DNA from: an uncultured bacterium | GTDB lineage: Bacteria; Patescibacteriota; Saccharimonadia; UBA4664 | Length of the DNA: 64,000 nucleotides | Assembly (NCBI GenBank): GCA_963720265.1 | Contig: CAVRET010000002.1 | Coordinates: forward strand, 878,069-942,068 | Direction: 5' to 3' | Shown here: positions 8,552-46,236 of the stretch, piece after piece | Position numbering within the stretch: position 1 is the first letter of the stretch | How the letters are laid out: every line of letters begins with the position of its first letter | Made by a program: the position numbers and the translations under genes | The notes under the pieces: generated by a model | Databases searched by the model: none | The model's input: the letters and a program-made list of their open reading frames with translations, nothing else | What the model was told of the DNA's origin: nothing

Positions 8552-8552
8552 G

Positions 8553-28406: not shown

Positions 28407-28443
28407 ATATGGATAACTATACCATTTCAGGGGGATTGTCGGC

Positions 28444-28971: not shown

Positions 28972-29044
28972 TGGACGAAACCAACGGCTTGCCCTGGAGG
29001 CCCGCATCCGCGACTATATCTTTAACATAAGTGGAGAGGGTGCG

Positions 29045-29692: not shown

Positions 29693-30500
29693 TCATCGCT
29701 TCCAGCCCTTGCCGTGCGTCCGAGTATGCGCAATATTCGCAGGCCTCGGCTGGTTTGGGTGCTTTTGCAGAGGCAATGGCTCTTTGAGCCTTAATTAGCG
29801 CCGGCTCCACCCACGAATCGTCGGCCTCATACGGAATTAGCTCAATATTGAACTCCAGCTTGGCATCGAATCTGTCGAGGTCGGTGCGGCCGTTGCAGTA
29901 GACGAAGTAGCCGGTGGGGCTGACGTCGTGGCCGAGGCGGCGGAAGATCCATTGGTAGACCTCCATCTGGCGCTTGTAGGACGCCTTCCAATGGTCGTTG
30001 AGGGTGATCTCCTTAGTAGTGCTGGTGGCTTTGTAGTCGGCGATGATGAGCCGTCCGTCCACGCGGAGCAGCCAAATGTCGTCGATGATGCCCTTCACCA
30101 AAAAACCCGTGGGCTCGTGCAGGTAGGCCGCGCCGCCGGACGGGGTTTTGCGCCACTCGTCGAGCTCGGCGTGTGTGAACGGGATAGCACCTACGCCGTA
30201 CTTCGCGAACAACGGGTGCACCGTGCCGGCCGTGCGATGGATGTCGAACTCCTTTTTGAGCAGTGTGTCGACGGCGGAATTGAGAGTGAAGGCCGGGATG
30301 CTCGGACGGCGCAGGCCCAGCCGCCGGTCGAGGTAGAAGCAACGCGGGCAGCGCACGAAGTCTTCGAGCTTGGACCGGCTGAGCGTGAACGGCTTGTTTC
30401 CGGGACCGGGCGCGTTGGCGGCGGGGTCATACAGGCCGCGGGTGCGGATGGGCGCGAAAGGCGGCGGGGCGTTAGTCGGTTGATTCTGCTGGCTTGGCAT
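29676..30500 (-). CDS. Cas4/RecB-like PD-(D/E)XK nuclease with four Fe-S-type cysteines (DUF83-like)
   Basis: N-terminal CPRC, core IIDDIWLL...IADYKAT (D...DxK) and C-terminal CEYC. The start is probably the Met at 30500 (MPSQQNQ), and the ORF overlaps the upstream gene by about 29 nt. Confidence 0.5.
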   Translation of the reverse strand: MPSQQNQPTNAPPPFAPIRTRGLYDPAANAPGPGNKPFTLSRSKLEDFVRCPRCFYLDRRLGLRRPSIPAFTLNSAVDTLLKKEFDIHRTAGTVHPLFAKYGVGAIPFTHAELDEWRKTPSGGAAYLHEPTGFLVKGIIDDIWLLRVDGRLIIADYKATSTTKEITLNDHWKASYKRQMEVYQWIFRRLGHDVSPTGYFVYCNGRTDLDRFDAKLEFNIELIPYEADDSWVEPALIKAQRAIASAKAPKPAEACEYCAYSDARQGLEAMTTSPS

Positions 30501-31113
30501 GCCGATCCCGATAAAGTTTAGGCTTGATATACAACGTACTGCAGAGTGCTTCAGCCAGTTCGATAACGTTCTGCGCATCCTCTTCTGTAACCTCTACCTT
30601 GTCTTCTGCGTCTCCCGGATGTGCACCTGCATTTCCCACCACTCTTACCTCGTGCGCCCAATCTTTCAACTCGGTGGTTATGATTCGCTGCTCGTGGAGC
30701 CAATCAATCTGTCGCGCCAAGTCATTTTTTAGGCTCTTCGTTTTTTCACCGTCCTTAACCTCTCTGGTGGCTGGCGCTCCCCGTTCCAGGCAGATGTTTT
30801 GCACTGCGCGCCTTGCCATCGTGGCCGCAGCGCGGAATGCACCTACCGAGACGCAAAGCAGAGATTCCTCGAGGTCTTTCTTGATTGGAGCTGGGACGCT
30901 GTCGTCCACGGCTCTCGGCAATGAGGTGGGGTAAGTGCGCACAATTGAGCCGGACGGGATGGCCCGGACGACCAGCAGGCATTGAGAGCAATTGTTGCAC
31001 TCGCCTATCTCGTAAAGGAATGATTCCCCATTTGTGGGCTGGTATCTCGCCCGCTCGGATATGCTGGTGTGTCTTTCACAGCTTGGGCAGTAAATTGATT
31101 TGTGGTCTGCCAT
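30472..31113 (-). CDS. DUF4145-domain protein with N-terminal zinc ribbon
   Basis: CPSCERH...CNNCSQC is followed by VRVVGNAGAHPGD, the DUF4145 hallmark. AGGAG lies 6 nt before the ATG at 31113, and the track's earlier MRGARM start is the RBS read in frame. Confidence 0.55.
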   Translation of the reverse strand: MADHKSIYCPSCERHTSISERARYQPTNGESFLYEIGECNNCSQCLLVVRAIPSGSIVRTYPTSLPRAVDDSVPAPIKKDLEESLLCVSVGAFRAAATMARRAVQNICLERGAPATREVKDGEKTKSLKNDLARQIDWLHEQRIITTELKDWAHEVRVVGNAGAHPGDAEDKVEVTEEDAQNVIELAEALCSTLYIKPKLYRDRHAKPAESTD

Positions 31114-31209
31114 ACGTGCTCCTCTCATCCCCGGCTTGCGGCCGTCGTTATTGTAGGTGGCTCCGCTGCGGCGTCGGCAATATCGCCGGCCCCGCAGCGA
31201 GTCCCGGAC

Positions 31210-31368
31210 CTACACGTATTGCCAGACACAACCGCGCGGGTGGTGGTCACCCCAGTGGTCGCATGGCGCGAATTTGGTGCCTTTTTTCACCCTGTCGCGC
31301 GTACCTGGGTACTGCAGGCATTGGACGATGCCGTCGCGCGGCACCGTGTCGCCAGGCTTGTAAGTCAT
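31210..31368 (-). CDS. small Cys/His-containing protein (52 aa), not in the ORF track
   Basis: GGAGGG lies 5 nt before the ATG at 31368. Translation is MTYKPGDTVPRDGIVQCLQYPGTRDRVKKGTKFAPCDHWGDHHPRGCVWQYV. The plus-strand ORFs here are Ala/Arg-rich antisense artefacts. Confidence 0.3.
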   Translation of the reverse strand: MTYKPGDTVPRDGIVQCLQYPGTRDRVKKGTKFAPCDHWGDHHPRGCVWQYV

Positions 31369-31608
31369 GGCGCCCTCCTACTTTGCGCTGCCCCGCGTAA
31401 ATAATGTACGATGGATGGGCAGTTCCATTCTCGGCCTGCGCAGACTGCCGGTTCACGCCGGCGGTTTTTGTCTACGGGTTTTATTATTGAGCCGTAGAAC
31501 TTTATCGTCAAGTTTTTTTCTAAATACTGTTTGTATGCTTCGGTTTGTGCTCTAAGACTAATTACTTAGAGATTGCATATCTTGCTCACTTGTGCTATCG
31601 TGTGATTT

Positions 31609-31869
31609 ATGGACGATAAGAATACCGCATATAATAAAGCGGACTATACCCCAGAGGCTAAGAGGGCTCGCTTTCTTCGGGTTGCTGAGCGCCGCACGAA
31701 CATGATTATCAACGACATTAGGCTGATCGCAAATACTAGCAATAAGACGCTGTACCAATATACTGAGGCTGATATAGATAAAATTTTTGACGTCATCAAT
31801 GAGAAGCTGGCTGAAGCAAAGATGAAATTTACGGCTTCAAAGAAGTCGGAGCCGTTCCGGCTGGAGTGA
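31609..31869 (+). CDS. hypothetical protein (86 aa)
   Basis: ORF track. Its stop overlaps the next gene's start, and it is AT-rich. Confidence 0.4.
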   Translation: MDDKNTAYNKADYTPEAKRARFLRVAERRTNMIINDIRLIANTSNKTLYQYTEADIDKIFDVINEKLAEAKMKFTASKKSEPFRLE

Positions 31870-32342
31870 GCATGGCGAATAATAAGCTACATGGAGACGA
31901 CGGCGAGAAGGAGGTGGTTTCGCTGATCCCCTGCCCCAACTGTTCGAAACCGCTAATGCTACTTCCACCGAACTATCCTCTATATGATGTTCAATGCACC
32001 GGGTGCTCGTTTCGGGCCCAGGTAAAGACAAACCACTCGAGGCCGAAAGACGTAATCTTCGGGGCCGGCTGGGACATCATGGAGAAGGTCTTAAAGTCTG
32101 GTTACTTAGTACCCCCGCTCATCGCAAACTTTAAATGGCAGGAGAAAGGGGCGGAATATCAGACTGTGCTCTTCTACCCTTTCGTAGCGAAGAAGAATTT
32201 ATTCACCTACTCACTTCCAGAAACTGCGCGGCGCGCAAACTACCGTATGTTCCGGTATGTTGGCCTCCGGGATTTGCCACACTTTGTGCTATATTCCGGC
32301 AATGGGGCGACCACTGATGTTGAGGCTGATCAGGCAGGTTAG
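31866..32342 (+). CDS. zinc-ribbon protein (158 aa), unknown function
   Basis: CPNC...CTGC ribbon. It precedes the Type IIG gene in the same orientation. Confidence 0.45.
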   Translation: MSMANNKLHGDDGEKEVVSLIPCPNCSKPLMLLPPNYPLYDVQCTGCSFRAQVKTNHSRPKDVIFGAGWDIMEKVLKSGYLVPPLIANFKWQEKGAEYQTVLFYPFVAKKNLFTYSLPETARRANYRMFRYVGLRDLPHFVLYSGNGATTDVEADQAG

Positions 32343-32487
32343 GCTGTAGCGGCTTCTACTGTCGGTTCCCTTTTGCGCAGTTTATGCATTGCGCACAGTG
32401 TGAAGAGGATGGGTCGACGCTAAGTGAAACCATATACGCTAACTTTCAAGCGTTTTAGATGGCTTACGTTTCAGATACAATAAGCTC

Positions 32488-35460
32488 ATGCCTAGAGCAA
32501 CCTCCACCGACTTAGAGCAGCTAGTGGCGAATTTTGCTGCTAACGAATCCGCATATTGCGGCGCGGGTTCAACTTATAATGAGTCGGAGGCAAGATCGGA
32601 TTTTATCAATCCACTGTTTGAGGCTCTTGGCTGGGATGTGACCAATCGTCGTGGTTTGGCCCGTCCGTTGCGTGAGGTAATTCTTGAAGCCAATGTACGG
32701 GTTAATGAAGCAACGAAGAAACCCGATTATGAGTTCAGACACAACGGTTACCGTAAGTTTTTTGTTGAAGCGAAAAAGCCGTCAGTAGACATATCTTCCG
32801 ACCCAGCGCCTGCGCTTCAGTTGCGTCGCTATGGCTGGAGCGCCGGCTTGGCAGTTTCGGTACTCACTAATTTCAGACAATTCTACGTTTACGATTGCAC
32901 GGTTCAACCACTGGAAGGCGACAATCCGCGCGTTGCGCTTCTGGCAACGTTTGATTATCACGAGTTTGTTTCAAAGTTCGATGAGCTGAAAGGCCTAGTT
33001 TCTCACGAGCTTGTAACATCCGGTGACTTTGACTCCAAGTTTGCCGAGTTAATCTCAAAAGCCCGGGGTGATCAAGCCTTTGATAAGTTCTTTCTCGACC
33101 AAACCGAGAAATGGCGACTACTTCTGGCCAACGATATTCACAAACACGACTCAAGCCTGCCAGCGCATGAGGTGGATAGATTAACCCAGTTATTTTTAAA
33201 TCGAATTGTGTTTCTTCGCATTTGCGAAGATCGAAATCTGGAAGAATACGAAACTCTAAAAAACATCCCCGCTGCGGAGGCAGTTCCGAGGTTAATGGAT
33301 CTGTTCAAACACGCTGATAGTAAATATGACTCTGGGCTATTTGAATTGCTTAAGGGGAAGCTGACGCCGTCGGTCCTTCTGTCCAATGAGGTGATTATGG
33401 CAATAGTTGGAGATCTCTATTACCCAAAAAGTCCTTACTCCTTCAGTGTTGTAAGCCCAGCCATTTTAGGGTCCATTTATGAGAGGTTTATCGCGCGCGC
33501 AATAACTATCGAAAACGGCAAAGCCCAGGCGGTTGAGAAGCCGGAGGTTCGTGAGTCAAACGGCGTGTTTCCAACTCCCGAGTACATAGTGCGGACAATT
33601 GTTGAGGATACCTTTGCCTTAAAGGGAGATGTGCTTGAGGCAAAGGTACTTGATCCCGCTGCCGGGTCCGGTGTTTTTATTACCGAGGCATTTGACAAAC
33701 TACTCCAGGCGCACCTGGATAATTACGTAAAGGCGGGCGAAGAGGCAAAGCTTAGGCATGATGACAACGGTGACTGGTACCTTTCACTGGATACTAAAAA
33801 AAATATCCTCATAAGCCAGATCTTTGGGGTGGATATTGACCACCAAGCCGTTGAAGTTGCGAAGTTTAGTCTTTATTTAAAGTTGCTGGAAGACGTTCCT
33901 AGTGGAGAAATTGCCGCAGTGATGGCGAGGGGTGAAAATGCACTTCCGCATCTAGAGAACAATATTAAACCGGGAAATTCGCTAATTGATAGCCGATCCT
34001 ATTTTCAATTCCACGATATCGGTCAGATACAACCTGGAGAGTTGGACAAGATATCGCCGTTTGATTGGGGGGAGCAGTTTCAGCCCGTAATGGACAGCGG
34101 CGGCTTCGATGTAGTTGTTGCCAACCCTCCATACATTCGCATACAGAACATAGTGCATTATTCGCCCTTAGAAGCTGAATTCTACACTAGCGATGCGAGC
34201 CCTTACGTGTCATCGCATGGCGGAAACTTTGATAAATACCAGCTTTTTGTTGAACGAGGATACCAATTACTGAATGGGGAGGGAATTCTTGCGTATATTG
34301 TCCCCCATAAGTTTGCAACCAATGCGGCCGGTCGACCTTTAAGGAGACTGATATCGAAAGCTAATGCATTGGCAGAATTTGTTCATTTTGGATCGCTCCA
34401 ATTGTTCCCTGGTCAGGCTACAACTTACACATGTCTGCTATTTATATCTCGAAAGCAGCGGGAATCCTTTCAATTCGAAAGAGTTGACTCCTTGCAAGAA
34501 TGGCAGTCAGGCGATAGAAGTTCTGAAACTTTGAGCTCCGATAGTATCTCAGAAGAGCCGTGGACATTTTTGTCTCATGACGATAAGGAGCTTTTCAACA
34601 AGATCGAGGGCGAGAACCCAGGGAGGCTCGGAACGAGTGCTGCAAAGATCTTTGTTCCGCTTCAAACGAGCGCTGATAACATTTACATCGTTACTCCTTT
34701 GCGTGCAGAGAATGGTAAGCTTATGTTCCGCGATAAGGATGGTCGGGAGTGGACTGTCGAGGAATCAATCACCAGGCCAGCCATTCTCGATATTGACGAC
34801 TTCGACTCGCTCCGCGGTCTAGCGCCGAACAAGATTATGATCTTCCCGTATGCTATGGAAGGCGGCCAAAATCGCCCGATTCCCGAAGCGGTAATGAAAA
34901 GCAGATTCCCCTTAGCCTATAAATACTTGTTGGCATTCAAGGCTAAGTTGAGCAGCCGATCCATGCAAGGAAGTGGGCCGTGGTACCGCTTTGGTAGATC
35001 ACAAAACCTAAATTTGTTCAGTGCAGGCACAAGCGGCAAGTTAATCATTAAAAATCCTGCGCTTAGAGCGACAGTGGCCCTAGATACAGCCGATATTCAT
35101 TTCACCGGCGGCGGGAATGGGCCCTATTATGGCGTCCTCCCAAACGAAGGCGTGCCTATTTATTTCGTGCATGCCTTACTGAATAGTGAGCTTTTTGACC
35201 GATGGGTAAAGGCCAGAAGTAGCGTTTTTAGAGGGGGGTACTACTCGTACGGCAAGCAGTTTATTGAGAACTTTCCTGTTATTGACTTGGTGAAAAATTC
35301 TGCTCAAGTTAATGAGATAGCCTTGGCATGGAAGGGGGTGCTTGATTCGCCACCTGCCGATCCTGAGCGAAGAAAGCAACTACTTTTGCGTGTTAACGAG
35401 AAAATAAACAGTCTGTACGGCATAGCAACGGAGGGGGAAATGAATGGTAGTAGCAGCTGA
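32488..35460 (+). CDS. Type IIG restriction-modification enzyme (fused PD-ExK endonuclease + gamma-class N6-adenine methyltransferase + target-recognition domain), Eco57I/MmeI-like
   Basis: N-terminal KPDYEF...FVEAKKP is a PD-ExK nuclease motif, motif I is VLDPAAGSGVF, motif IV is VVANPPYIRIQ, and the protein is 990 aa. It overlaps a second methyltransferase gene downstream. Confidence 0.75.
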   Translation: MPRATSTDLEQLVANFAANESAYCGAGSTYNESEARSDFINPLFEALGWDVTNRRGLARPLREVILEANVRVNEATKKPDYEFRHNGYRKFFVEAKKPSVDISSDPAPALQLRRYGWSAGLAVSVLTNFRQFYVYDCTVQPLEGDNPRVALLATFDYHEFVSKFDELKGLVSHELVTSGDFDSKFAELISKARGDQAFDKFFLDQTEKWRLLLANDIHKHDSSLPAHEVDRLTQLFLNRIVFLRICEDRNLEEYETLKNIPAAEAVPRLMDLFKHADSKYDSGLFELLKGKLTPSVLLSNEVIMAIVGDLYYPKSPYSFSVVSPAILGSIYERFIARAITIENGKAQAVEKPEVRESNGVFPTPEYIVRTIVEDTFALKGDVLEAKVLDPAAGSGVFITEAFDKLLQAHLDNYVKAGEEAKLRHDDNGDWYLSLDTKKNILISQIFGVDIDHQAVEVAKFSLYLKLLEDVPSGEIAAVMARGENALPHLENNIKPGNSLIDSRSYFQFHDIGQIQPGELDKISPFDWGEQFQPVMDSGGFDVVVANPPYIRIQNIVHYSPLEAEFYTSDASPYVSSHGGNFDKYQLFVERGYQLLNGEGILAYIVPHKFATNAAGRPLRRLISKANALAEFVHFGSLQLFPGQATTYTCLLFISRKQRESFQFERVDSLQEWQSGDRSSETLSSDSISEEPWTFLSHDDKELFNKIEGENPGRLGTSAAKIFVPLQTSADNIYIVTPLRAENGKLMFRDKDGREWTVEESITRPAILDIDDFDSLRGLAPNKIMIFPYAMEGGQNRPIPEAVMKSRFPLAYKYLLAFKAKLSSRSMQGSGPWYRFGRSQNLNLFSAGTSGKLIIKNPALRATVALDTADIHFTGGGNGPYYGVLPNEGVPIYFVHALLNSELFDRWVKARSSVFRGGYYSYGKQFIENFPVIDLVKNSAQVNEIALAWKGVLDSPPADPERRKQLLLRVNEKINSLYGIATEGEMNGSSS

Positions 35461-37099
35461 AGAGGCCGACAAGCAGAAACTTAGAGGCGGTTATTACACA
35501 CCTCAACCCATAGCGCGATTTCTGGTAGATTGGGCGTTGAATGGAGGCGAATCCGTGCCCCGCGTTTTAGAGCCAAGTATGGGTGATGGTGCCTTTGTGA
35601 TAGAACTCGCTAGAGCTTTGAGAGATCGAGGTGTTAAGGCGGGACAAATTGGCCCCACTATACACGGCGTCGAGTTATTCCCCGAAGAGATCGAGACTGC
35701 AAAGCAAAGACTCGAAGGGAGTGCCTTTGATTCCAGCTCCTTCAGTTTTTACTCTGGCGACTTTTTTGAAACTTCCAGGACGTATTTGGAAAATCAGAAA
35801 TTTGATATCGTCCTTGGCAACCCTCCATTCATTAGGTACCAAAGTTTTCCAGACGCGCAACGTGACGAAGCGATGTCGCAGCTGTCGGCACTGGGTTTTA
35901 AGCTCAATAAGCTTACGAACGCTTGGCTGTTCTTCTTGCTGAGGAGCATCACCATGATGAAGGACAAAAGCCGTTTAGCAATGGTCATTCCTGCTGAACT
36001 TCTTCAGGTAAAGTACGCTGCCGAAGCGCGAGAATTTATTGCGGAGCATTTTAGTTCAGTTACCGTCGTAACATTTAAGAGTCTGGTCTTCGATGGCATT
36101 CAACAAGAGGTAGTACTTCTGCTGGCCGAGAAAAATCCTGCATCGCCATCTCATGGAATCGACGTAGTTGAAATTGAAAACCTAGTCGCCTTAAAGAATT
36201 TTAAACATGCACTTAAAGATCCGGGGCACCTTAAGCCGATAGAACATCAGACCGACAAGTGGACGCAATACTTCCTGAGTAAAGAGGAGATCCTTCTTTT
36301 ACGGAAGATTAGGGCATTGCAAGGACTTACAGAAATGCGGCAGCTTGCTTCGGTCGACGTGGGTATCGTTACTGGCAACAACAAATTTTTCGTAGTGAGC
36401 CAAGATCAGGCTGAACAACACAATATTCTCAATAGTACGGTGCCTCTGGTCGGAAAGAGCGCAAGCCTGATGGGACTAGATTTCGGTAAAGATAAGTGGA
36501 AGGAGTTAGCCACGCTTGGACTTCCCTCACACCTGCTATTCCTAAAGGATTCTGACCCTGTAGGTGAAAGAGTTAGCGAATACCTTGATCTCGGTATTCA
36601 AGCTGAAGTTCACAAAGGCTACAAATGCAGAATACGTAAGAACTGGTACGTTGTGCCATCAACATGGATTTCTGATGCTTTCCTTCTAAGACAAATCCAC
36701 GGCTTCCCGAAGCTTATCCTAAACTCCGCCGGAGCGGCTTGCACAGATACAATACACAGGGTTCGCTTCGCAGAACACGTAAATCCCAACGCCATGGCAG
36801 TTAGTTTCTTTAATTCACTGACATTCGCAATGTCTGAGGTTATCGGGCGCAGCTACGGCGGCGGGGTGCTAGAGCTCGAGCCGAATGAGGCAGAGGAACT
36901 GTTGATACCATACATGGAAGGCTCAGGCGGCCTGTTTCAGAAGATAGACGGGCTGGTGCGAGCCAGCAAGATCGAAGAGGCTCTCGACATTGTGGATGCC
37001 GCAGTGCTGAGCGCGGGGATAGGGCTAGAGCGAGACGACCTCACCCGAATGAGAGGAATCTGGAGAAAGCTTTCCGCAAGACGTATCGGCAGAAGGTGA
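35444..37099 (+). CDS. N6-adenine DNA methyltransferase (companion methylase of the Type IIG system)
   Basis: Motif I EPSMGDGAFV and motif IV LGNPPFIRYQ. Its start overlaps the Type IIG gene's stop by 17 nt. The arrangement matches Eco57I plus M.Eco57I. Confidence 0.7.
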   Translation: MVVAAEEADKQKLRGGYYTPQPIARFLVDWALNGGESVPRVLEPSMGDGAFVIELARALRDRGVKAGQIGPTIHGVELFPEEIETAKQRLEGSAFDSSSFSFYSGDFFETSRTYLENQKFDIVLGNPPFIRYQSFPDAQRDEAMSQLSALGFKLNKLTNAWLFFLLRSITMMKDKSRLAMVIPAELLQVKYAAEAREFIAEHFSSVTVVTFKSLVFDGIQQEVVLLLAEKNPASPSHGIDVVEIENLVALKNFKHALKDPGHLKPIEHQTDKWTQYFLSKEEILLLRKIRALQGLTEMRQLASVDVGIVTGNNKFFVVSQDQAEQHNILNSTVPLVGKSASLMGLDFGKDKWKELATLGLPSHLLFLKDSDPVGERVSEYLDLGIQAEVHKGYKCRIRKNWYVVPSTWISDAFLLRQIHGFPKLILNSAGAACTDTIHRVRFAEHVNPNAMAVSFFNSLTFAMSEVIGRSYGGGVLELEPNEAEELLIPYMEGSGGLFQKIDGLVRASKIEEALDIVDAAVLSAGIGLERDDLTRMRGIWRKLSARRIGRR

Positions 37100-37108
37100 A
37101 CAGACCGA

Positions 37109-37447
37109 CTAGGATTTCCGAACCTGACCTTTTCGCAACCTCTTCACTAAGTGGTTTACTTCGGCAACGTTAACTTCTGTTGTCTTCCATCCTTGGGGGG
37201 TCAGCTCCCAGCGAGCAGTGCCTGTGGATTTAATCAAACCATACATTCGCAGATATGTCCTTGCCCAGGAGGCGCGGTAGGATAGCTTTGTTGCCTTATC
37301 CTTGTGAATCTCTTGCCGCTGAGCCTCAGTTAGGCCCATTAGATCAGCTATTTCAGCGTTAATCTCGGCGTTGACGCCAGAACCACCAAGCTCCTTAAGT
37401 GATTGGATGGTGGGGTTGAACATCTCAAAATATTGGGGCACTGCCAT
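37109..37447 (-). CDS. stand-alone Mrr_N-like winged-helix protein (112 aa)
   Basis: MAVPQYFEMFNPTIQSLKELGGSGVNAEINAEIADLMGLTEAQRQEIHKDKATKLSYRASWARTYLRMYGLIKSTGTARWELTPQGW follows the Mrr N-terminal domain pattern (conserved W-A-RTYL...GLI...G.W.LT..G). Confidence 0.55.
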   Translation of the reverse strand: MAVPQYFEMFNPTIQSLKELGGSGVNAEINAEIADLMGLTEAQRQEIHKDKATKLSYRASWARTYLRMYGLIKSTGTARWELTPQGWKTTEVNVAEVNHLVKRLRKGQVRKS

Positions 37448-37544
37448 CTGGAGTATTCGTTACAAGCGTTATTATGCATGCGCATGCAAAATTGAGCAAA
37501 CACGAAGTCACCAGGAAGAGCAGTGCGATTGCGTCATAAGTGGT

Positions 37545-38393
37545 TTACTGAGACGAAGCTAATCTGCTCGTTGCACGTGCCTCCATCTTGTCTCCGGTTA
37601 TTTCGGATGTATAGTACCGACCACTAAGCAAGTTCAAAACACCATCAAGAGATTTGGTAGTGTTTACGACCAATTTCCCACTTGTATTCGTTTCGACGCC
37701 ACACTCAGGATATCGCGTAGCGTATTGCCGTATTTTTTCTTGGGTTTCTTCGTCGTCTAGGTTAATTGATTCGTCTGCGAGAATTGCAGCGATACGGCGA
37801 GAGGCCCTCATACCGATTCGGCCTATGTCTAAGCCGTTGCTGTCAAATAGGCTATAGTTGGCAAATTTCTCCTTGTCCTCTCTTGTGGCTTCTTTGAAAA
37901 AGTCTTCGATCCCAGCAAATAATGTCCTGATTTTTGAGAAGTTTCTAAAATATAGTCGGCCATTCCCGTCATAATATGTATCTACTAAACCCGTGAACTC
38001 TATGGCATGTTCCTCTTTGTCCATCTTAGGGGTGCCACTAAAGTTCAAGAAACGCTTGTTTTCAATCCGGTATTTTCCTGTGATCTTCGTGAAGAGTATC
38101 TCATTATCACGGATTAGGAACACAACGTCGACTTCGTTATAGTCCTGCCGGCTAACTCGATTTTGGTCACCACTGCTCTCGGCGCTTTCGTAGTACGGGC
38201 CCATCATACTATTCTGCTGCTCGGTATCTAAGTCTACGTAATACCATTCATCTGCCTCAAGTCCCTGCTCCGGATCGAAGTTACGCAACCTAGTGAGGTC
38301 CTCCGGAGCTCGGTAAAAATTCAACTCGCTTATGTCATTGGCGTCGCTGAAAACAACTTTGAAGCTTTTAGATTTTAGCTTAGCAAGAAACAT
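37545..38393 (-). CDS. hypothetical cytoplasmic protein (282 aa); candidate KwaB-like partner
   Basis: ORF track. AT-rich. It starts 4 nt after the upstream 4-TM gene. No motif recognised. Confidence 0.45.
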   Translation of the reverse strand: MFLAKLKSKSFKVVFSDANDISELNFYRAPEDLTRLRNFDPEQGLEADEWYYVDLDTEQQNSMMGPYYESAESSGDQNRVSRQDYNEVDVVFLIRDNEILFTKITGKYRIENKRFLNFSGTPKMDKEEHAIEFTGLVDTYYDGNGRLYFRNFSKIRTLFAGIEDFFKEATREDKEKFANYSLFDSNGLDIGRIGMRASRRIAAILADESINLDDEETQEKIRQYATRYPECGVETNTSGKLVVNTTKSLDGVLNLLSGRYYTSEITGDKMEARATSRLASSQ

Positions 38394-38397
38394 TGCA

Positions 38398-38970
38398 CTA
38401 TTTTACCTCCAGGAAGGTGTATTCATTGATTCGGCGAAGCCCATTGAACTGCTGAGATTGCTTTAAATCTTGCCGTTTCGTTATCAATGTAAATGTGTTC
38501 TCCTGAGCAGTTTTAGCCTCATAGAACCTGAAGCCAAACAGAATCCAGATTGGGTTAAAATAAAACACTCTTTCGAAGTAGCCCCACAGAATGAGCAGGA
38601 CGGCGAGGACTACGAATGATTGTGCAATTTTGTCGTCCTTTAGACCGAGTGCAATTACGAAAAGTCCAATATATGTGGGCATTGCTGTACTTTCGATGGG
38701 TTTTATCTCCCGAACATCGAGCGTGTCGCCAGATTTGAATACGCTCGAGGCAATTTTCAGTGTAACCCAGGAAAATATAACGAAGATTACTGTTAGAAAA
38801 ACGATTTTGGCAACATAGCCCTCCCAGTTTGCCTGAAAACTGGGAGGCAATGACGCATAAGGGACATCAAACGGAGTCACAATCAGAAAAAAATAAATCA
38901 CGCCGAGGAACGAGCTCAAGGTGAGCAGGCGTTTTGTTAGCAATTCGATTAGAGCAAGTACAGTGCTCAC
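38398..38970 (-). CDS. 4-TM small membrane protein (190 aa); candidate KwaA-like
   Basis: Four hydrophobic segments (LGVIYFFLIVTP, IVFLTVIFVIFSWVTL, YIGLFVIALGL and FVVLAVLLILWGYF) are followed by a cytoplasmic tail. Confidence 0.5.
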   Translation of the reverse strand: MSTVLALIELLTKRLLTLSSFLGVIYFFLIVTPFDVPYASLPPSFQANWEGYVAKIVFLTVIFVIFSWVTLKIASSVFKSGDTLDVREIKPIESTAMPTYIGLFVIALGLKDDKIAQSFVVLAVLLILWGYFERVFYFNPIWILFGFRFYEAKTAQENTFTLITKRQDLKQSQQFNGLRRINEYTFLEVK

Positions 38971-39190
38971 CCCACCCTGCCCCTCTGCCTTGGTTCGATA
39001 TGCTTCTTCATTTCGCTACTATAAGGCATTTACCTCTCCCCTGTCTTCCCATCGTAAGGACAGCTCTGGGGCCATCAATGTCGTTCTGCCGTGGGGAGCT
39101 CCACATTGACGGCCAGCCCGCGCTGTCCTTGCCCTTGGGCCAGGGCGAGAGGTCGACTCGGCCGGAGTTAATAAGAAAGGAGTGTGTGAT

Positions 39191-39526: not shown

Positions 39527-39961
39527 TTACGAGGCTTCCGGGCCTTTTTCTTGGGTCGAAGGAAATTCCGCTATGCCGCCGCCGCCTTGCGCGACCAATA
39601 GCCTATTTGAACCCTCAAACGTCCACGCTTCGTAGCCTGAGGAAGAAATGTATATCTCGAGCTCATTCTTGTTGCCAAACGTGATTCTAACGTCACCAAG
39701 GGCCTCAATGATTGCAGTCGTCACTTTACCGCCAAGCAGCTTTTTTGCATCAACCGCTGCGTCAATTGGCTCAGGCATACCAAACTTCTGGCTATGATCC
39801 ATGTCGCAGAGCAATACTTGTCCATTGCCAGTTATGCGCCAAAACGATGCAACCCTAAATTGGTTTCCAGAATCAAACTTGAAAATCCAATCGCGCGTCT
39901 GCTCGCCGTATGTTATTACCTCCAGACTGGATCCGATAATTTCCGAGATTAGGCTCTTCAT
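39527..39961 (-). CDS. hypothetical protein (144 aa)
   Basis: ORF track. It overlaps the upstream gene's stop (39958..39961). Confidence 0.4.
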   Translation of the reverse strand: MKSLISEIIGSSLEVITYGEQTRDWIFKFDSGNQFRVASFWRITGNGQVLLCDMDHSQKFGMPEPIDAAVDAKKLLGGKVTTAIIEALGDVRITFGNKNELEIYISSSGYEAWTFEGSNRLLVAQGGGGIAEFPSTQEKGPEAS

Positions 39962-40713
39962 TGGCTAATTGTAGCAAATGCCGGGACCAACTGGCCGAGG
40001 GCTACCACCTTGAAATGGATGTCGTCCTCGAACGTATTCTCAAGCTCAGCGGCGGCAAATCGCTGGAGGCGACGGCGCAAGTTGTCGGATTCGCAGATCA
40101 GTAGCACGGTTGGCAGTTTGGTGTGGGTGGCCGCCTCCCACTCCCCTTCTTCGGCGTACTCAATGTACTCTTGGATGCGCTTTTTGTGCTGGAAGCTGGG
40201 AGTGGCCTCGAGGCAGATCTCGAGGAAGTACTGCCTTTCCTGGTTGCCCTTGCCGATACGGGAATAGGCGTCCGGGCGGGATTCGGGGAAGTCCTCATAA
40301 TGGTAGAGCTCTGCCTTGGTGAAGAATTCCAGTCGGTCACCGAAACGCCGTTCGAGCTCAACGTTAGCGTCCCCGGCCATCAGGCAGCGGCGGATGAAGG
40401 GCTCCTGGGCGTCTTTATCCTTGTACATGTTGTGCAGGACGGACTTGCTGACATCCGGGTCGAATTGTTTGAGGGCCTTCATGCCGGCCGGCAGCAGGTA
40501 GTACGAAGCGGGAAGTCCAGCAAGCCTTTGGGATCCGTCGTAGTTGCGGCCGATAAGACCTTTCTCAACTAACGAGTTTAGTCTTGGCTGGACATTGCTG
40601 ATGTGTTTGATCCCTAAGGCTTGCTGGACGTGTTTGGTACTGATGAACCGGAATCGGTAGATTAGGGTGAGGATTGTTTGTTGTTGTTTTGTGAGTGGTT
40701 GTGTTTTGTTCAT
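39958..40713 (-). CDS. replication-relaxation family protein (251 aa), paralog of 17304..18179
   Basis: LTKQQQTILTLIYRFRFISTKHVQQALGIKHISNVQPRLNSLVEKGLIG aligns with the N-terminus of the element-1 protein. Confidence 0.5.
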   Translation of the reverse strand: MNKTQPLTKQQQTILTLIYRFRFISTKHVQQALGIKHISNVQPRLNSLVEKGLIGRNYDGSQRLAGLPASYYLLPAGMKALKQFDPDVSKSVLHNMYKDKDAQEPFIRRCLMAGDANVELERRFGDRLEFFTKAELYHYEDFPESRPDAYSRIGKGNQERQYFLEICLEATPSFQHKKRIQEYIEYAEEGEWEAATHTKLPTVLLICESDNLRRRLQRFAAAELENTFEDDIHFKVVALGQLVPAFATISQ

Positions 40714-40807: not shown

Positions 40808-43432
40808 TCACTTGGCCACCTTGTGCTTCTTCTGCGGCCGGCGGTCTTCGGGTTTGCGGTCCGGGTCTTTTTCGGCCGGTTTGTCCTTGGGCTGCGAGGA
40901 TGGCTGACTAGTTGATGGGGGTGCCGGCTTGCGGCTGTAGTGCTCACGCGAGTAATCGACTACGCGCCGCGCCACTGAGTCACTCCCCTCTTCCGGCGGC
41001 AGGATAGTTTCGCCCGAGAATGGTTCCTGGGTCTTGATACCGGCGATGCGCATGTAGAAGTTGTACGCCGGGAGGTTTGCGATCTCGCCGGCATCGATGT
41101 AGGGCGCGAAGAACGGCAGCAGGAGCTTCTCGTCGGCCGGGTTGCCGGTACGGAAGCAGACGAGCGTGCCGACGTTGGCCAGGATGACCTGTACCATGAG
41201 CTGGTCTTTTTGCTGGGAGGTGGATTGCTCGGCCAGAGTCATGTATAGGCGGTACTTTCTGGCTTCGGATAGCATTTGGACAAACGAGGCGGTGGCGAAA
41301 TTCTGGAACTCGTCAACATACAGATAGAATGGCCGGCGGTCTTCTTGAAGAATTCGGGCGCGGCGGAGTGCTGCCATTTGCAGTTTGGCCAATACAGTTA
41401 TTCCGAAAAGCTCGGAAGTATCTTCACCTAGCAAGCCTTTGGAGAAGTTGCAGACCAGGACTTTGCCGGAATTCATGATGTCGTCGAAGTCGATGGTGGA
41501 TTTGGGCTGTTCGAGGATGCGCTTGGCGGAGGCCGAGAACAAGAAGCGGCCGATCTTGGCGGTGATGCCGGCGGCCATCTTGACTCGCTGGAAGTTGCCG
41601 GCCTTGCCTAGCTCGTTTTGCCAGAAGTTTTTAAGGTCTTTATCTTGGAGCTTGGAGACGACTTGCTTGCGGTACCTGGGATCGTTCAGGAGGTCAAAGA
41701 CCGTGAACAGGGTTGCGCCCTGCTGGGTTAGCGCCGTCTGGACGGCGTTTCGGAGCACATATTCAATCCGGTGGCCGCCTTCGTCTTCTTCCGAGAAGAT
41801 TTTGCGGAATACGGATATGGTCGCTTCCGTCACCAGGTCCTTTTCGCGCAAGAGTTCATCGTCCGTTAAGCCCTCCCGCAGCTCAAGTAGATTGAGGCCG
41901 ATAGGGTGGCCGAGGTCGTCGGGGCTGAAATATATAACGTCTTTTACTCGCTCTTCCGGGATATGGCTGATGAGCGTTTCCGCCGCATCGCCGTGCGGGT
42001 CGATGAACGCAAAGCCCTTCCCCTTATGAGCATCCTGAATCATGGCCCCAAGCATCAAGGTGGTTTTACCGTTACCGGTACCGCCGATGATGTAGGCATG
42101 CCGCTCGCGATCTTTGGCGGTGAGGCCAATTTCGGTGGCGGTTCCATGATGGTGGTTAACCCCTATCGGTATGACGAATTCGTTGGCATCGGCATACTGC
42201 TTAAGGAGGAGAGGCGCGGGAAGCGTTCTGCTATGTGACTTAACCAAATTTTCGGTCTGAGAGCTATCGGCATACGGGAAGTGGTAAAGGTCTCCCATTT
42301 CTGACGCCGCCAGCACGCTAGAACGCCACATTAGAATTGACGGCAGACGGTGCCGGAATTTGAACAAACTGTATCTTTGCCAAAGTCTGCGGGGAAATGT
42401 CCGACCAACTCCAAGGCTCTGGTAACCCGGCATCCTCAGCGGGGCCAGTGACGCGTAGAGCGCGGCGATCTTCTTGTACCGGCTGTACTGGCTCGATGCG
42501 GCAACATAGCCCCTGATATCTGCCCGAAAAAGATCATGCCCTAGCTTTTCAAGCATCCTGTCGTGTATGCGCTGCTGGGCGGCAGTTCTTTCGTCGTTGG
42601 CTGCTGATTTCTGGCTGGGACGAGGTGATGGAAGGTCCATACCCGCTACCGCTGCGATCAGGCCTACAATGAAGGCTAGGAATAGAAATGCAGCTAGCAG
42701 TGCCAAGCCAACGGCAACTAGCACAATGAGCAGCGTAGTAGCGAGGAAGTAACGCCTGAACTTATGCTCTAGGAGCGGGCTCGATCCTCTGAGCAGCTTT
42801 TTATGAACCTTACGGGCCTCCCGGCCGAAGTACGGCGTGAGCACCACCTGAAGCGCCACGGTCTCGCCTGGTTCTAGTTTGGTCATGGCGCCGGCGATGT
42901 AAGCTATTGGGTCATGCTGGCCGAGCGAGTCTTGGGCGTTCAGTGGGTGCGCAAAGTGACGATTTTGGCTGTACTCGAGCACCCGGACATACGGCGCAGC
43001 CTGATCCGATACGCTGTACGGAGGCTCTTTTACCACCTGAAAGCGTGCGTTGGGGAGGTAGGCTGCCAAGCTCTGCTGCAATACAGCAATGTCTGCCTGG
43101 TGAACTTGAATCAAGTAACGGATGCCGTGCTCTCGGGTGGACAGTACTTCAAGTGAGACTATCTGGCTGCGATTCAAGAGTCGGTCGCGCCAGGATCGCC
43201 ACGAAGTGATGCTATGCAGTACGGCGAACAAGTGTTTCGTTGCAAGCGGGCTTTTATCTGAGAAGGCCGGCGGCGTAACTTCGAGGAAGACTAGATTTCG
43301 CTGAAGATTGCGCCGGAGATTGAGTAGGCGGATCGCTAGGTCGAGCAGGATGAAGAATACAAGCAAAACGACCGCCACCAGTAGCCAGTGGCGCAAGAGT
43401 AGCTCTCGCAAAAGCTCGATATTCCGCTGCAT
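40808..43432 (-). CDS. TraD/TraG/VirD4-like coupling-protein family P-loop ATPase with N-terminal TM segments (874 aa)
   Basis: N-terminal hydrophobic helices, Walker A YIIGGTGNGKTT and Walker B FYLYVDEFQNF. It is paralogous to 14997..17303. Confidence 0.7.
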   Translation of the reverse strand: MQRNIELLRELLLRHWLLVAVVLLVFFILLDLAIRLLNLRRNLQRNLVFLEVTPPAFSDKSPLATKHLFAVLHSITSWRSWRDRLLNRSQIVSLEVLSTREHGIRYLIQVHQADIAVLQQSLAAYLPNARFQVVKEPPYSVSDQAAPYVRVLEYSQNRHFAHPLNAQDSLGQHDPIAYIAGAMTKLEPGETVALQVVLTPYFGREARKVHKKLLRGSSPLLEHKFRRYFLATTLLIVLVAVGLALLAAFLFLAFIVGLIAAVAGMDLPSPRPSQKSAANDERTAAQQRIHDRMLEKLGHDLFRADIRGYVAASSQYSRYKKIAALYASLAPLRMPGYQSLGVGRTFPRRLWQRYSLFKFRHRLPSILMWRSSVLAASEMGDLYHFPYADSSQTENLVKSHSRTLPAPLLLKQYADANEFVIPIGVNHHHGTATEIGLTAKDRERHAYIIGGTGNGKTTLMLGAMIQDAHKGKGFAFIDPHGDAAETLISHIPEERVKDVIYFSPDDLGHPIGLNLLELREGLTDDELLREKDLVTEATISVFRKIFSEEDEGGHRIEYVLRNAVQTALTQQGATLFTVFDLLNDPRYRKQVVSKLQDKDLKNFWQNELGKAGNFQRVKMAAGITAKIGRFLFSASAKRILEQPKSTIDFDDIMNSGKVLVCNFSKGLLGEDTSELFGITVLAKLQMAALRRARILQEDRRPFYLYVDEFQNFATASFVQMLSEARKYRLYMTLAEQSTSQQKDQLMVQVILANVGTLVCFRTGNPADEKLLLPFFAPYIDAGEIANLPAYNFYMRIAGIKTQEPFSGETILPPEEGSDSVARRVVDYSREHYSRKPAPPSTSQPSSQPKDKPAEKDPDRKPEDRRPQKKHKVAK

Positions 43433-44391: not shown

Positions 44392-45825
44392 CTAAGGGGT
44401 TTTGACCCTTCGCTCAATCAGTAAGCCAATGCCTGATACCCTGAGGTGTAGGCCCAGGTTTGACATAATTACGCGCTTTTCTCCTGGCGAGCTGTTGATG
44501 TACAGTCGCACGATTGGGTTGGGCGCTTCAATCTCGGGCCTTGTGGTACCGTTAATGCCCTCGGCCTCATGAAGCCTTTGGAGCCGCTCTGCGAGTTGAG
44601 CCAACTGAGATTCGAGCTCTTGGGCCTTGCCCGCATAGCGGTCTTGGCTAATCTCTCCAGCCAGTTTCTCTTCGTAAAGCCTTTCTTGCATACGTTTGGT
44701 ACGTTGAACTTGGGCGTTAATGGATTCAACCACTTTTGCCCGGTACGCACCGACTGTCTCGGCCGGCCGGCTTTTTTCTATCGCCTGCTTGAGACCTGTG
44801 ATCACGGCTCCGTTTGAGTCATGGATCTTCTCAAGTAGGTCAATAACCTTTTGCTCAACCCGGTCTTCGCGCAAGCCCTTCCCACTACAAGCTGCCTTTG
44901 TGCGCTGGCAGTATCCATAATAGCGCCCTTTTTGCTTTTCCCAGCTAACCAGCCCGCCACAAGAGTCGCATCGAACCATGCCCTTAAAGACAGGGTCGTG
45001 TTTCCTGGACCTACTGAGGGACTTGCGGTGTAGTTTTGCCTGCACCTGATCAAATAGCTCTTGGCTTATGATTGGTTCCTGCGCGCCGGGATATTCCTTG
45101 CCATCGAGCCGGTTGATTCCGATGTAGAACGGGTTGCCCAACATCTTGGCCACAGCACTCTTTACATGCGGATGCCCATGCTTGGTAACAATGCCCATCG
45201 CGGCCATCTCCAATGTAATGGATTGGACGCTGTGATTGGGCGTCATGTATAGCTCGAATACACGCTGGACAAGGGCCATGGTTGCAGGATTGGGCACGTG
45301 AATGCGCTTGCCGGCTTCGGTGATGGTCATGTACCCCGGCGGCGGCGGAGCGGGCAGCCAACCTTGCGCAAGTTTTTCGGCCCATCCCTTCATGACTTCT
45401 TCCCGGAGATTGTCCGTGTACTTCTTGGCCAGGGCCAGATTGATACTCCACATAAACTTGGTGTCGGATCGAGACTTCTTTTGTAGGACTTGTCCCTCCT
45501 TTACCAGATGCAACGTGCGGCGCTCATCGCTTTCGAGCCAATCATCGATGCGAGCGGCGTCGCGGAGGTTGCGGGTAAGGCGGTCGGTTTTTTCTACCAC
45601 CAGGTGGAGGACTCTGTCCTTTGTAATTACCTTCAGCATCTCCTGGAACACGGTGCGTCGCAGTTGTTTGGAAGCGGTTTCAGTGATGCGGAATTCCCGA
45701 ACCACTGTAAGCTCTTTGGCGGCGCAATAGTCGCGAAGGAGTTTGATTTGTGAATCAAGGGAGTAGCCTTCGTCTTCTTGTGACTTACTCGAAACCCTAG
45801 CCAGAATGATGGCTTTTGTCTGCAT
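44392..45825 (-). CDS. large serine recombinase
   Basis: AIILARVSSKSQ catalytic motif and a C-terminal zinc ribbon (CDSCGG...YCQRTKAAC), 477 aa. Confidence 0.8.
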   Translation of the reverse strand: MQTKAIILARVSSKSQEDEGYSLDSQIKLLRDYCAAKELTVVREFRITETASKQLRRTVFQEMLKVITKDRVLHLVVEKTDRLTRNLRDAARIDDWLESDERRTLHLVKEGQVLQKKSRSDTKFMWSINLALAKKYTDNLREEVMKGWAEKLAQGWLPAPPPPGYMTITEAGKRIHVPNPATMALVQRVFELYMTPNHSVQSITLEMAAMGIVTKHGHPHVKSAVAKMLGNPFYIGINRLDGKEYPGAQEPIISQELFDQVQAKLHRKSLSRSRKHDPVFKGMVRCDSCGGLVSWEKQKGRYYGYCQRTKAACSGKGLREDRVEQKVIDLLEKIHDSNGAVITGLKQAIEKSRPAETVGAYRAKVVESINAQVQRTKRMQERLYEEKLAGEISQDRYAGKAQELESQLAQLAERLQRLHEAEGINGTTRPEIEAPNPIVRLYINSSPGEKRVIMSNLGLHLRVSGIGLLIERRVKTP

Positions 45826-45908
45826 GTATCCCTCCTATGTGGGTTATATTTTGTCTTTGACACTATCAATATTTGGATATATTATCAATATATGGATAGC
45901 TCGGAGGG

Positions 45909-46235
45909 ATGAGCATGTTACAGCAACAGATGGAGCTACTGCCCACAGCGGGGACCGCATTAGCGTTAGTGCCGCCCGTCAGCGACAAGGCCCCGGCTCC
46001 GGTCGTCAAGGACCGCTCGCTTGAAGGCGCGATGATGCGAATTTTTCCTAAGAGTCAGGATGAAGCGCGACTGGAGCAGGCCCGCCGGATTATGGGCGAC
46101 GAGATTAATGCGCTTAGTGATGCGGAGCTGACCGAGCACTTGGCGCAGTTCCAGTACTTAATCGACCAGTGGCTTGATGAATTCGAGCGGCAAGCATTCG
46201 AGGGCCGGACGCTGCGGCAGATGATTGGGGGCTGA
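45909..46235 (+). CDS. hypothetical protein (108 aa) preceding the second recombinase
   Basis: ORF track. Its stop overlaps the recombinase start region. Confidence 0.35.
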   Translation: MSMLQQQMELLPTAGTALALVPPVSDKAPAPVVKDRSLEGAMMRIFPKSQDEARLEQARRIMGDEINALSDAELTEHLAQFQYLIDQWLDEFERQAFEGRTLRQMIGG

Positions 46236-46236
46236 C

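What the first reader, a model, noticed from the sequence alone, without database searches (positions are those of the whole stretch)
37545..38970. Kiwa-like two-gene module: 4-TM 190-aa membrane protein followed 4 nt later by a 282-aa soluble protein, in an AT-rich insert
Gene order, sizes and membrane topology match KwaA (small 4-TM protein) and KwaB (about 300-aa DUF4868) of the Kiwa anti-phage system. I cannot confirm DUF4868 by eye, so it could equally be an uncharacterised membrane-sensor/effector pair. Its low GC and position inside the defense island support a defense role.
Basis: inference. Interest (0 to 1): 0.55.

Follow-up and report, generated by a model that had tools for sequence, protein, structure and literature searches.

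The report
Divergent Kiwa anti-phage gene pair
This is an intact but distant copy of the known two-gene Kiwa phage-defence system (membrane sensor KwaA plus DNA-binding KwaB), carried next to restriction-modification genes on an integrated conjugative-type element, so it is an ordinary new member of a known family.

Summary
On the minus strand, a 190-aa four-helix membrane protein (38970..38398) is followed 4 nt later by a 282-aa soluble protein (38393..37545). Both lie in a low-GC block.

The Kiwa interpretation is supported:
- 13 PADLOC KwaA models (best 8e-14) hit the first protein and 7 KwaB models (best 4e-14) hit the second.
- The first protein carries a precomputed Pfam PF28043 (KwaA) hit.
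- AlphaFold models (pLDDT 91 and 88) match only solved Kiwa chains in the PDB: KwaA 9mrx_A at E 1.6e-6 and KwaB 9mrx_D at E 2.7e-10. The next hits have E of about 1.
- kwaA directly precedes kwaB in every related locus fetched, always near restriction or mobile-element genes.

The pair is a distant branch, 14-19% identical to the E. coli proteins. It scores below the curated cut-offs of NCBIfam KwaA (37.6 vs 100 bits) and Pfam KwaB (23.7 vs 26.3 bits).

It sits beside the relaxase and coupling-protein genes of a serine-recombinase integrative element. That backbone carries Kiwa in two other metagenomic loci.

The mechanism is inferred from E. coli Kiwa: KwaA senses phage attachment at the membrane, and KwaB binds incoming DNA and blocks replication and late transcription.

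Verdict: new member of a known kind, modest interest.

The parts
38398..38970 (-). kwaA: 190-aa inner-membrane protein with 4 TM helices. A cytoplasmic beta-sheet module is formed by the TM2-TM3 loop and the C-terminus.
   Evidence: ORF. 13 PADLOC KwaA models hit, best PDLC00221 at 8.1e-14. Precomputed PF28043:KwaA. NCBIfam NF041622 scores 37.6 bits, below its cut-off of 100. AlphaFold pLDDT 91. The top 6 Foldseek PDB hits are all KwaA, with 9mrx_A at E 1.6e-6. The family profile hits KwaA 9mrg at E 0.0023 as the only PDB family.
37545..38393 (-). kwaB: 282-aa cytoplasmic protein with a compact N-terminal alpha/beta domain and a C-terminal DUF4868/KwaB domain.
   Evidence: ORF. 7 PADLOC KwaB models hit, best PDLC00229 at 4e-14 over residues 87-272. 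Pfam PF16162 scores 23.7 bits against a cut-off of 26.3. 26 of 35 family members hit PF16162. AlphaFold pLDDT 88. The top 6 Foldseek PDB hits are all KwaB (9mrx_D at 2.7e-10, then 9mtn and 9nyu), aligned over the full length.
38394..38410 (-). kwaA-kwaB junction: GGAGG (38410-38406) inside the end of kwaA, stop TAG (38400-38398), and the 4-nt spacer TGCA (38397-38394) before the kwaB ATG.
   Evidence: Read directly from the sequence. The tight spacing implies co-transcription and coupled translation (inference). In related loci the two genes abut or overlap by 1 nt.
38971..39181 (-). 211-nt region upstream of kwaA, shared with the divergent DUF3768 gene. It holds purine-rich Shine-Dalgarno candidates (38985-38975) and one sigma-70-like match, AAGACA-18-TATAGT (39047 to 39018).
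   Evidence: Sequence and a consensus scan scoring 9 of 12. This is a consensus match only, and the host's promoter type is unknown.

Best explanation
The two genes are a divergent but intact Kiwa defence operon, kwaA then kwaB.

Shown here: homology, fold, gene order and context.

Inferred from the E. coli system (Zhang, Todeschini et al., PMC11785009; Cell 2025):
- KwaA inserts in the cytoplasmic membrane through four helices. Its cytoplasmic beta module docks KwaB.
- KwaA oligomers and KwaB dimers build a membrane-attached array.
- KwaB then binds the incoming DNA through its DUF4868 domain without cutting it. This stalls replication forks and blocks late transcription.
- The infected cell survives.

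The operon is cargo, acquired together with or next to a Type IIG restriction-modification cassette. It sits beside the relaxase gene of an integrated serine-recombinase mobilisable or conjugative element.
For: Sequence profiles:
- 13 KwaA and 7 KwaB PADLOC models hit, best 8.1e-14 and 4e-14.
- PF28043:KwaA is on record for this exact protein. The locus carrying it, L001, is 100% identical to window 28118-39165.
- PF16162 KwaB gives E 5.5e-5, and 26 of 35 relatives match it.
- One relative, P0067, is named a KwaB-like domain protein by NCBI.

Structure:
- The KwaA model (pLDDT 91) has 4 TM helices, a beta hairpin in the TM2-TM3 loop and C-terminal strands. This is the architecture described for solved KwaA.
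- The only significant PDB matches are KwaA chains at E 1.6e-6 to 3e-3. The next hit has E 1.3.
- The KwaB model (pLDDT 88) matches only KwaB chains at E 2.7e-10 to 4e-9 over about 307 columns. The next hit has E 0.9.
- The motif after TM4, FYxNP...G[FY][RK]x[FY], is shared with RefSeq-annotated KwaA from Salmonella and Emticicia.

Synteny:
- kwaA directly precedes kwaB in all 13 related loci held, about 8 distinct places apart from the window's own copy. They include Campylobacterota, Saccharibacteria and Persicobacter.

Context:
- The window has a Type IIG enzyme, a methyltransferase, a DpnI-like gene, a PD-T7-4-like gene and separate Mrr-domain ORFs.
- Related loci carry DruA/NurA/HerA, Type IIG or ISP-like enzymes, C5-methylase with HNH, and PD-(D/E)XK genes.

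Intactness:
- Both ORFs are full length relative to their homologues, and the family-invariant residues are kept.
Against: - The pair is only 14-19% identical to the solved E. coli proteins.
- Single-sequence phmmer against the PDB finds nothing.
- The KwaB family profile against solved KwaB is not significant, E 1.4.
- hhalign against a Salmonella Kiwa is weak, E 0.005-0.009 with probability 4-8%.
- The NCBIfam KwaA equivalog cut-off is missed by far, and the Pfam KwaB gathering score narrowly.
- KwaB is acidic overall, pI 4.9. I could not map the DNA-contacting or KwaA-contacting residues of E. coli KwaB onto it.
- Global TM-scores are only 0.45-0.55.
- No terminator-like site was found, and the promoter evidence is a consensus match only.
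- Oligomeric state, DNA binding and anti-phage activity are untested.
- The host organism is unknown.
Confidence: 0.88

Rival explanations
1. The proteins are Kiwa homologues, but the main role of this clade is to serve the mobile element. It would exclude or limit incoming conjugative DNA and competing elements rather than phages, by sensing mating-pair or pilus contact at the membrane.
For: - The pair lies within about 1 kb of the Replic_Relax relaxase gene and 1.8 kb of the coupling-protein gene.
- The same backbone carries Kiwa in L002 and L009. Coupling protein identity is 56-62%, recombinase 53% and relaxase 25-36%.
- E. coli Kiwa systems lower conjugation more than twofold.
Against: - About 5 of the 8 or so other distinct related places held show no such backbone. 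They sit among restriction genes or ordinary genes instead.
- Defence cargo on conjugative elements is common and does not imply an exclusion role.
- All tested Kiwa systems are anti-phage.
Confidence: 0.07
2. An inactive relic of Kiwa that is still open-reading but no longer functional.
For: - It scores below curated thresholds.
- It has foreign composition inside a patchwork of mobile DNA.
- Neighbouring Mrr-domain ORFs are separate pieces.
Against: - Both ORFs are full length.
- All family-invariant residues are present.
- Both AlphaFold models are high-confidence.
- Ribosome-binding sites and the tight gene junction are intact.
- The low scores reflect distance from the seed families, since close relatives score the same way.
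Confidence: 0.04
3. An unrelated membrane-sensor/effector pair that merely resembles Kiwa in size and gene order.
For: Only the weak pairwise sequence statistics against enterobacterial Kiwa support this.
Against: - For both proteins independently, profile hits go only to KwaA or KwaB models.
- For both proteins independently, structural hits go only to Kiwa chains, with a gap of about 6-9 orders of magnitude in E-value to the next hit.
Confidence: 0.01

Closest known systems
Kiwa of Escherichia coli (O55:H7 RM12579 / ECOR strains). Solved as KwaA (9mrg, 9mrr), KwaB (9mtn, 9nyu) and the KwaAB complex (9mrx, 9o0i). Zhang, Todeschini et al., PMC11785009 / Cell 2025.
   Same: - Two-gene operon in the order kwaA then kwaB.
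- KwaA has four TM helices plus a cytoplasmic beta module built from the TM2-TM3 loop and the C-terminus.
- KwaB has an N-terminal alpha/beta domain plus a C-terminal DUF4868 domain.
- The FYxNP...G[FY][RK]x[FY] motif follows TM4.
- Location among mobile-element and defence genes.
   Different: - 14-19% identity in the Foldseek alignments.
- KwaB is 282 aa against 315 aa. hhalign offsets place the missing 30-40 residues in the N-terminal half, but the exact loops are not resolved.
- Below the NCBIfam and Pfam curated cut-offs.
- Carried on a monoderm-type conjugative backbone rather than in an enterobacterial prophage or island.
PADLOC-DB Kiwa sub-families PDLC00221 (KwaA, 173 positions) and PDLC00229 / PDLC00222 (KwaB, 282 / 292 positions)
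   Same: These are the best-scoring models. The KwaA model is covered almost end to end (5-170 of 173). The KwaB models have the same short length as this protein.
   Different: Scores are only about 50 bits. The first ~85 residues of KwaB match no PADLOC KwaB model. The clade is therefore not one of the seed sub-families (inference).
Metagenomic short-KwaB clade (for example P0004/P0018 on a 331-kb JGI contig; P0067/P0043 in Saccharimonadia MAG GCA_035317825.1; P0072/P0052 in a Campylobacterota MAG)
   Same: - 39-67% identity, the same lengths and the same kwaA-kwaB adjacency.
- P0004 and P0067 loci share the same coupling-protein, relaxase and recombinase backbone.
- NCBI already names P0067 a KwaB-like domain protein.
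   Different: - The window's copy has a 4-nt spacer instead of a 1-nt overlap.
- It is followed by an Mrr_N-only ORF and a Type IIG cassette that are not seen in the other loci.
Other membrane-anchored phage-entry sensors with cytoplasmic effectors (for example Zorya ZorAB with its effectors), as reviewed in PMC13434031
   Same: General logic only: a membrane complex detects phage entry and a cytoplasmic partner acts on the invading DNA.
   Different: No sequence or fold relation. No Zorya model hit either protein. Kiwa's KwaB binds DNA without cutting it.

Membership tests
Kiwa (KwaA/KwaB) | Two adjacent co-oriented genes, kwaA immediately upstream of kwaB | tested here: met
   There is a 4-nt spacer in the window. 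The same order and adjacency hold in all 13 related loci held.
Kiwa (KwaA/KwaB) | [quoted passage not shown] | tested here: met
   The AlphaFold model (pLDDT 91) has helices at 3-31, 49-77, 93-112 and 115-132 and strands at 80-91, 148-154, 159-164, 173-182 and 185-187. Foldseek's top 6 hits are KwaA chains, E 1.6e-6 with probability 1.00. The feature is described.
Kiwa (KwaA/KwaB) | KwaA sequence-family membership (Pfam PF28043; PADLOC KwaA) | tested here: met
   PF28043:KwaA is on record without a 'weak' mark for this exact protein. 13 PADLOC KwaA models hit, best 8.1e-14 with near-full coverage. The family profile hits solved KwaA at E 0.0023, the only PDB family found.
Kiwa (KwaA/KwaB) | KwaA reaches the NCBIfam equivalog NF041622 cut-off (100 bits) | tested here: not met
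   37.6 bits, E 1.9e-9. This fails the criterion for 'equivalog of the enterobacterial type', not the criterion for homology.
Kiwa (KwaA/KwaB) | KwaB carries the DUF4868 / KwaB domain (Pfam PF16162) | tested here: inconclusive
   23.7 bits against a gathering score of 26.3, E 5.5e-5, covering profile positions 21-186 of 186. 26 of 35 relatives match, best 5.8e-12. 7 PADLOC KwaB (DUF4868) models hit, best 4e-14. It is sub-threshold by Pfam's own rule, but supported by the other profiles and by structure.
Kiwa (KwaA/KwaB) | KwaB two-domain fold (N-terminal Rossmann-like domain plus C-terminal DUF4868) | tested here: met
   The AlphaFold model has pLDDT 88. Foldseek's top 6 hits are KwaB chains (9mrx_D, 9mtn, 9nyu) at E 2.7e-10 to 4e-9 over 302-312 columns, and the next hit has E 0.9. 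The global TM-score of about 0.45 may reflect a different domain orientation; this was not resolved.
Kiwa (KwaA/KwaB) | KwaA tetramer binding KwaB dimers in a membrane supercomplex; interface residues conserved | not testable with these tools
   No multimer prediction or coordinate superposition was available. A conserved C-terminal N-x-Y-T-F-x-E motif (residues 182-188) resembles the Y181/F183 interface motif of E. coli KwaA, but the alignment there is unverified.
Kiwa (KwaA/KwaB) | KwaB binds DNA through a basic channel (E. coli R142, R167, K187, R233, N134, D169) | not testable with these tools
   The family has conserved basic positions (K103, K113, R146, R150, K167, R200, K240, K269). They could not be mapped onto the E. 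coli residues. Overall pI is 4.9.
Kiwa (KwaA/KwaB) | Protects against phages and needs both genes | not testable with these tools
   This needs an experiment.

The most novel reading that the evidence does not exclude
The short-KwaB clade to which this pair belongs has 868 cluster representatives at 50% identity. It could be a distinct Kiwa subtype that travels in the cargo slot beside the relaxase of serine-recombinase conjugative elements of monoderm or candidate-phyla bacteria. Its compact KwaB N-terminal domain might dock on KwaA differently from the E. coli complex. Its main target might be incoming conjugative DNA rather than phage DNA.
Probability: 0.1. Interest if true: 0.45.

Novelty: new member of a known kind. 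Interest (0 to 1): 0.25.

Why it matters
The finding mainly improves annotation. They miss the NCBIfam and Pfam curated cut-offs that were scanned (a copy of Pfam PF28043 was not available for scanning here), so a threshold-based annotation pipeline would probably leave them unnamed, yet profile and structure evidence identify them as Kiwa.

It adds a distant, compact KwaB variant that could help define which parts of the KwaA-KwaB interface and the DNA-binding channel are truly essential.

It also documents Kiwa as recurrent cargo next to the relaxase gene of one family of integrative elements that also occurs in Saccharibacteria genomes.

It does not open a new mechanistic question on its own.

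Tried and rejected
Searches that gave nothing or little:
- Single-sequence phmmer of both proteins against PDB sequences found no hits.
- The KwaB family profile against PDB sequences put KwaB 9o0i_H on top, but at E 1.4, which is not significant.
- hhalign of the family alignments against a RefSeq-annotated Salmonella Kiwa gave only weak local matches, E 0.005-0.009 with probability 4-8%.
- NCBIfam has KwaA below cut-off and no KwaB model hit.
- tblastn of KwaB against the phage collection found no match. Against plasmids it found one distant pair in Persicobacter.

Host identification failed:
- Every window protein looked up is a nameless singleton cluster.
- One further look-up was not on record.
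- The window's genome is not among the species representatives scanned.

Ideas rejected:
- The Mrr_N ORF (37109-37447) as a third Kiwa gene. It is absent from all other loci.
- Mrr_N and the Mrr_cat ORF (28444-28971) as halves of one gene split by an inversion. The geometry fits, but there are no inverted repeats at the ends, and the two ORFs hit different PADLOC models. This is left open.

Also noted: no intrinsic-terminator-like site lies near the operon.

Full report
**Observation**

The two ORFs are present on the minus strand.
- The first runs 38970..38398, starts with GTG and encodes 190 aa.
- The second runs 38393..37545, starts with ATG and encodes 282 aa.
- The stop codon TAG of the first gene and the ATG of the second are separated by four bases, TGCA. 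A GGAGG lies inside the end of the first gene, 12 nt upstream of the ATG.
- The GTG start is preceded by purine-rich GAGGGG and AGGG. It coincides with the N-termini of 32 aligned homologues.

The pair is compositionally distinct.
- It is 43-45% GC with GC3 of 0.49.
- GC3 is 0.61-0.69 in the adjacent element backbone genes (recombinase, coupling protein, relaxase) and 0.68-0.69 in the chromosomal genes sampled further right.
- The low-GC block is wider than the pair, about 31.6-38.9 kb. It also includes a DpnI-like gene, a 990-aa Type IIG enzyme, a 551-aa methyltransferase and an Mrr_N-only ORF.

**Identity by sequence**

- The 190-aa protein hits 13 different KwaA models in PADLOC-DB. The best is PDLC00221 at 8.1e-14, covering positions 5-170 of 173.
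- The 282-aa protein hits 7 KwaB (DUF4868) models. The best is PDLC00229 at 4e-14, covering residues 87-272. Apart from one marginal hit to a PADLOC 'Effector' (2TM) model at E 0.04, no other defence family appears for either protein.
- The collection's precomputed Pfam table lists PF28043, labelled KwaA, for this exact protein. The locus carrying that label is 100% identical to window 28118-39165.
- Pfam PF16162 (KwaB) matches residues 101-266 at E 5.5e-5, but with 23.7 bits against a gathering score of 26.3. Among 35 aligned relatives, 26 match PF16162, best 5.8e-12.
- NCBIfam's KwaA equivalog NF041622 scores 37.6 bits against a cut-off of 100, and no NCBIfam model matches the second protein.
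- Against PDB sequences, single-sequence searches find nothing.
- The KwaA family profile finds only solved KwaA chains, E 0.0023.
- The KwaB family profile puts solved KwaB on top, but without significance, E 1.4.
- Comparison with a RefSeq-annotated Salmonella Kiwa is weak.
- A multiple alignment with annotated KwaA from Salmonella and Emticicia shows a shared invariant motif after the fourth helix, F-Y-x-N-P ... G.

**Identity by structure**

- The AlphaFold model of the first protein has pLDDT 91 and pTM 0.84.
  - Helices lie at 3-31, 49-77, 93-112 and 115-132.
  - A beta hairpin lies at 80-91 in the loop between helices 2 and 3.
  - Four further strands lie in the C-terminal 45 residues.
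- In a Foldseek search of the PDB, its six best hits are all KwaA chains, with 9mrx_A at E 1.6e-6, TM 0.55 and probability 1.00. The seventh hit has E 1.3.
- The model of the second protein has pLDDT 88.
- Its six best hits are all KwaB chains (9mrx_D at 2.7e-10, then 9mtn and 9nyu), aligned over 302-312 columns. The seventh hit has E 0.9.
- Identity in these alignments is 14-19%. The global TM-score for KwaB is about 0.45, which may reflect a different angle between its two domains. I could not check this.

**Family and context**

- The word-indexed search returned 48 homologues of KwaA and, with a profile, 34 of KwaB. Many come from the same contigs.
- An exhaustive profile search found 868 KwaB-like cluster representatives at E <= 0.001 and 162 at E <= 1e-30. 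Most of the 150 best hits listed are full length at about 265-305 aa.
- In all 13 related loci held, kwaA lies directly upstream of kwaB on the same strand. These are about 8 distinct places apart from the window's own copy. They include Campylobacterota MAGs, Saccharibacteria MAGs and a Persicobacter replicon.
- The neighbours are defence or mobile-element genes:
  - DruA, NurA, HerA, RadC, Zeta toxin and a serine recombinase.
  - A 1331-aa ResIII/Eco57I enzyme.
  - T4SS genes, Vsr, a C5-methylase and HNH.
  - PD-(D/E)XK nucleases and a Type IIG-like enzyme.
- In the window the pair lies beside a Replic_Relax relaxase gene (39958-40713), a TraD-like coupling-protein gene (40808-43432) and a large serine recombinase gene (44392-45825).
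- These backbone genes are shared with two of the related Kiwa loci. Coupling protein identity is 56-62%, recombinase 53% and relaxase 25-36%.
- Kiwa is therefore recurrent cargo of one family of integrative elements. The coupling protein resembles those of Bacillus and Streptomyces plasmids at about 30%.
- The host of the window could not be named.

**Mechanism**

No part of the mechanism is shown here. It is transferred from E. coli Kiwa on the strength of homology.
- In E. coli, KwaA tetramers and KwaB dimers form a fence-like membrane supercomplex.
- Both genes are needed, and defence does not kill the cell.
- KwaB foci form at phage attachment sites.
- KwaB binds ssDNA and dsDNA without cutting, through DUF4868 residues lining a basic channel.
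- Phage replication and late transcription fail, and lambda Gam inhibits KwaB.

For this pair I infer the same sequence of events, with about 0.75 confidence that it is an active defence system of this kind.

Points that could differ:
- The N-terminal half of KwaB is 30-40 residues shorter than in the enterobacterial proteins.
- KwaB is acidic overall, pI 4.9.
- The family's conserved basic and aromatic residues could not be mapped onto the E. coli interface or DNA-binding residues.

**Rivals**

- A role centred on excluding conjugative DNA is possible, because of the position next to the relaxase and the reported anti-conjugation effect of Kiwa. However, most related loci lack that backbone.
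- A decayed relic is unlikely, given full-length ORFs, retained invariant residues and confident models.
- An unrelated look-alike pair is contradicted by two independent sets of exclusive profile and fold matches.

**Verdict**

This is a new, distant member of a known and mechanistically characterised system. It is of modest interest, mainly for annotation and for comparative analysis of the KwaA-KwaB interface.

Noticed in passing
window 19749-21452 and 46225-47871: Two tRNA genes lie antisense to the 3' ends of large serine recombinase ORFs. tRNA-Val(TAC) at 21376-21452(-) overlaps the ORF 19749-21419(+). tRNA-Leu(GAG) at 47760-47843(-) lies wholly inside the ORF 46225-47871(+). These look like integration junctions at tRNA genes.
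   Followed up: partly
window ~13000-48000: The window holds three large serine recombinases (19749-21419+, 44392-45825-, 46225-47871+). It also holds two coupling-protein plus Replic_Relax backbones (14997-18179+ and 39958-43432-), whose coupling proteins are only about 29% identical to each other. This suggests an array of different integrated mobilisable elements at one hotspot.
   Followed up: partly
window 6472-11813 (-): A low-GC (about 47%) operon encodes a 1086-aa protein with an Hsp70-like fragment, a DEAD/ResIII helicase and Helicase_C (weak SngC hit at 6e-5). Three ORFs of 313, 150 and 225 aa follow, with no Pfam or PADLOC match. It may be an uncharacterised defence operon.
   Followed up: partly
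window 37109-37447 (-) and 28444-28971 (+): An Mrr_N-only ORF (112 aa) lies 97 nt downstream of kwaB, and an Mrr_cat-only ORF (175 aa) lies 8 kb away on the other strand. Inverting 28444-37108 would join them head to tail, but no inverted repeats mark those ends. The Mrr_N ORF is not found next to Kiwa elsewhere.
   Followed up: partly
window 37470-37500 (- strand intergenic): A perfect 14-nt palindrome, TGCATGCGCATGCA, lies between kwaB and the Mrr_N ORF, about 25 nt upstream of the latter's start. It could be an operator or a weak hairpin, and it has no T-tract.
   Followed up: no
window 27164-27257 and 28067-28161: A 94-nt direct repeat (88-92% identical, 903 nt apart) brackets a PIN-domain gene (27244-27636-). 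An independent 11-kb assembly of the same sequence (L001, 100% identical to 28118-39165) breaks inside the second copy.
   Followed up: partly
window 28400-28418 and 45883-45901: A 19-nt imperfect direct repeat (84%, core ATATATGGATA) would bracket a 17.5-kb unit. That unit runs from the Mrr_cat gene to just beyond the recombinase gene 44392-45825. These could be attachment-site remnants or a chance match.
   Followed up: no
window 29676-31128 (-): A DUF4145 protein (30472-31128) matches the PADLOC candidate system PD-T7-4 at 3e-9. It overlaps the start of a Cas4-like PD-(D/E)XK nuclease gene (29676-30578). This may be a further defence pair in the same island.
   Followed up: no
L007 5213-5797: In one related Kiwa locus, a 194-aa gene with a weak Phage_Mu_Gam (Ku-like DNA-end binding) hit lies 2.2 kb upstream of kwaA. 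This is of possible interest because E. coli Kiwa interacts functionally with DNA-end biology through RecBCD and lambda Gam.
   Followed up: no
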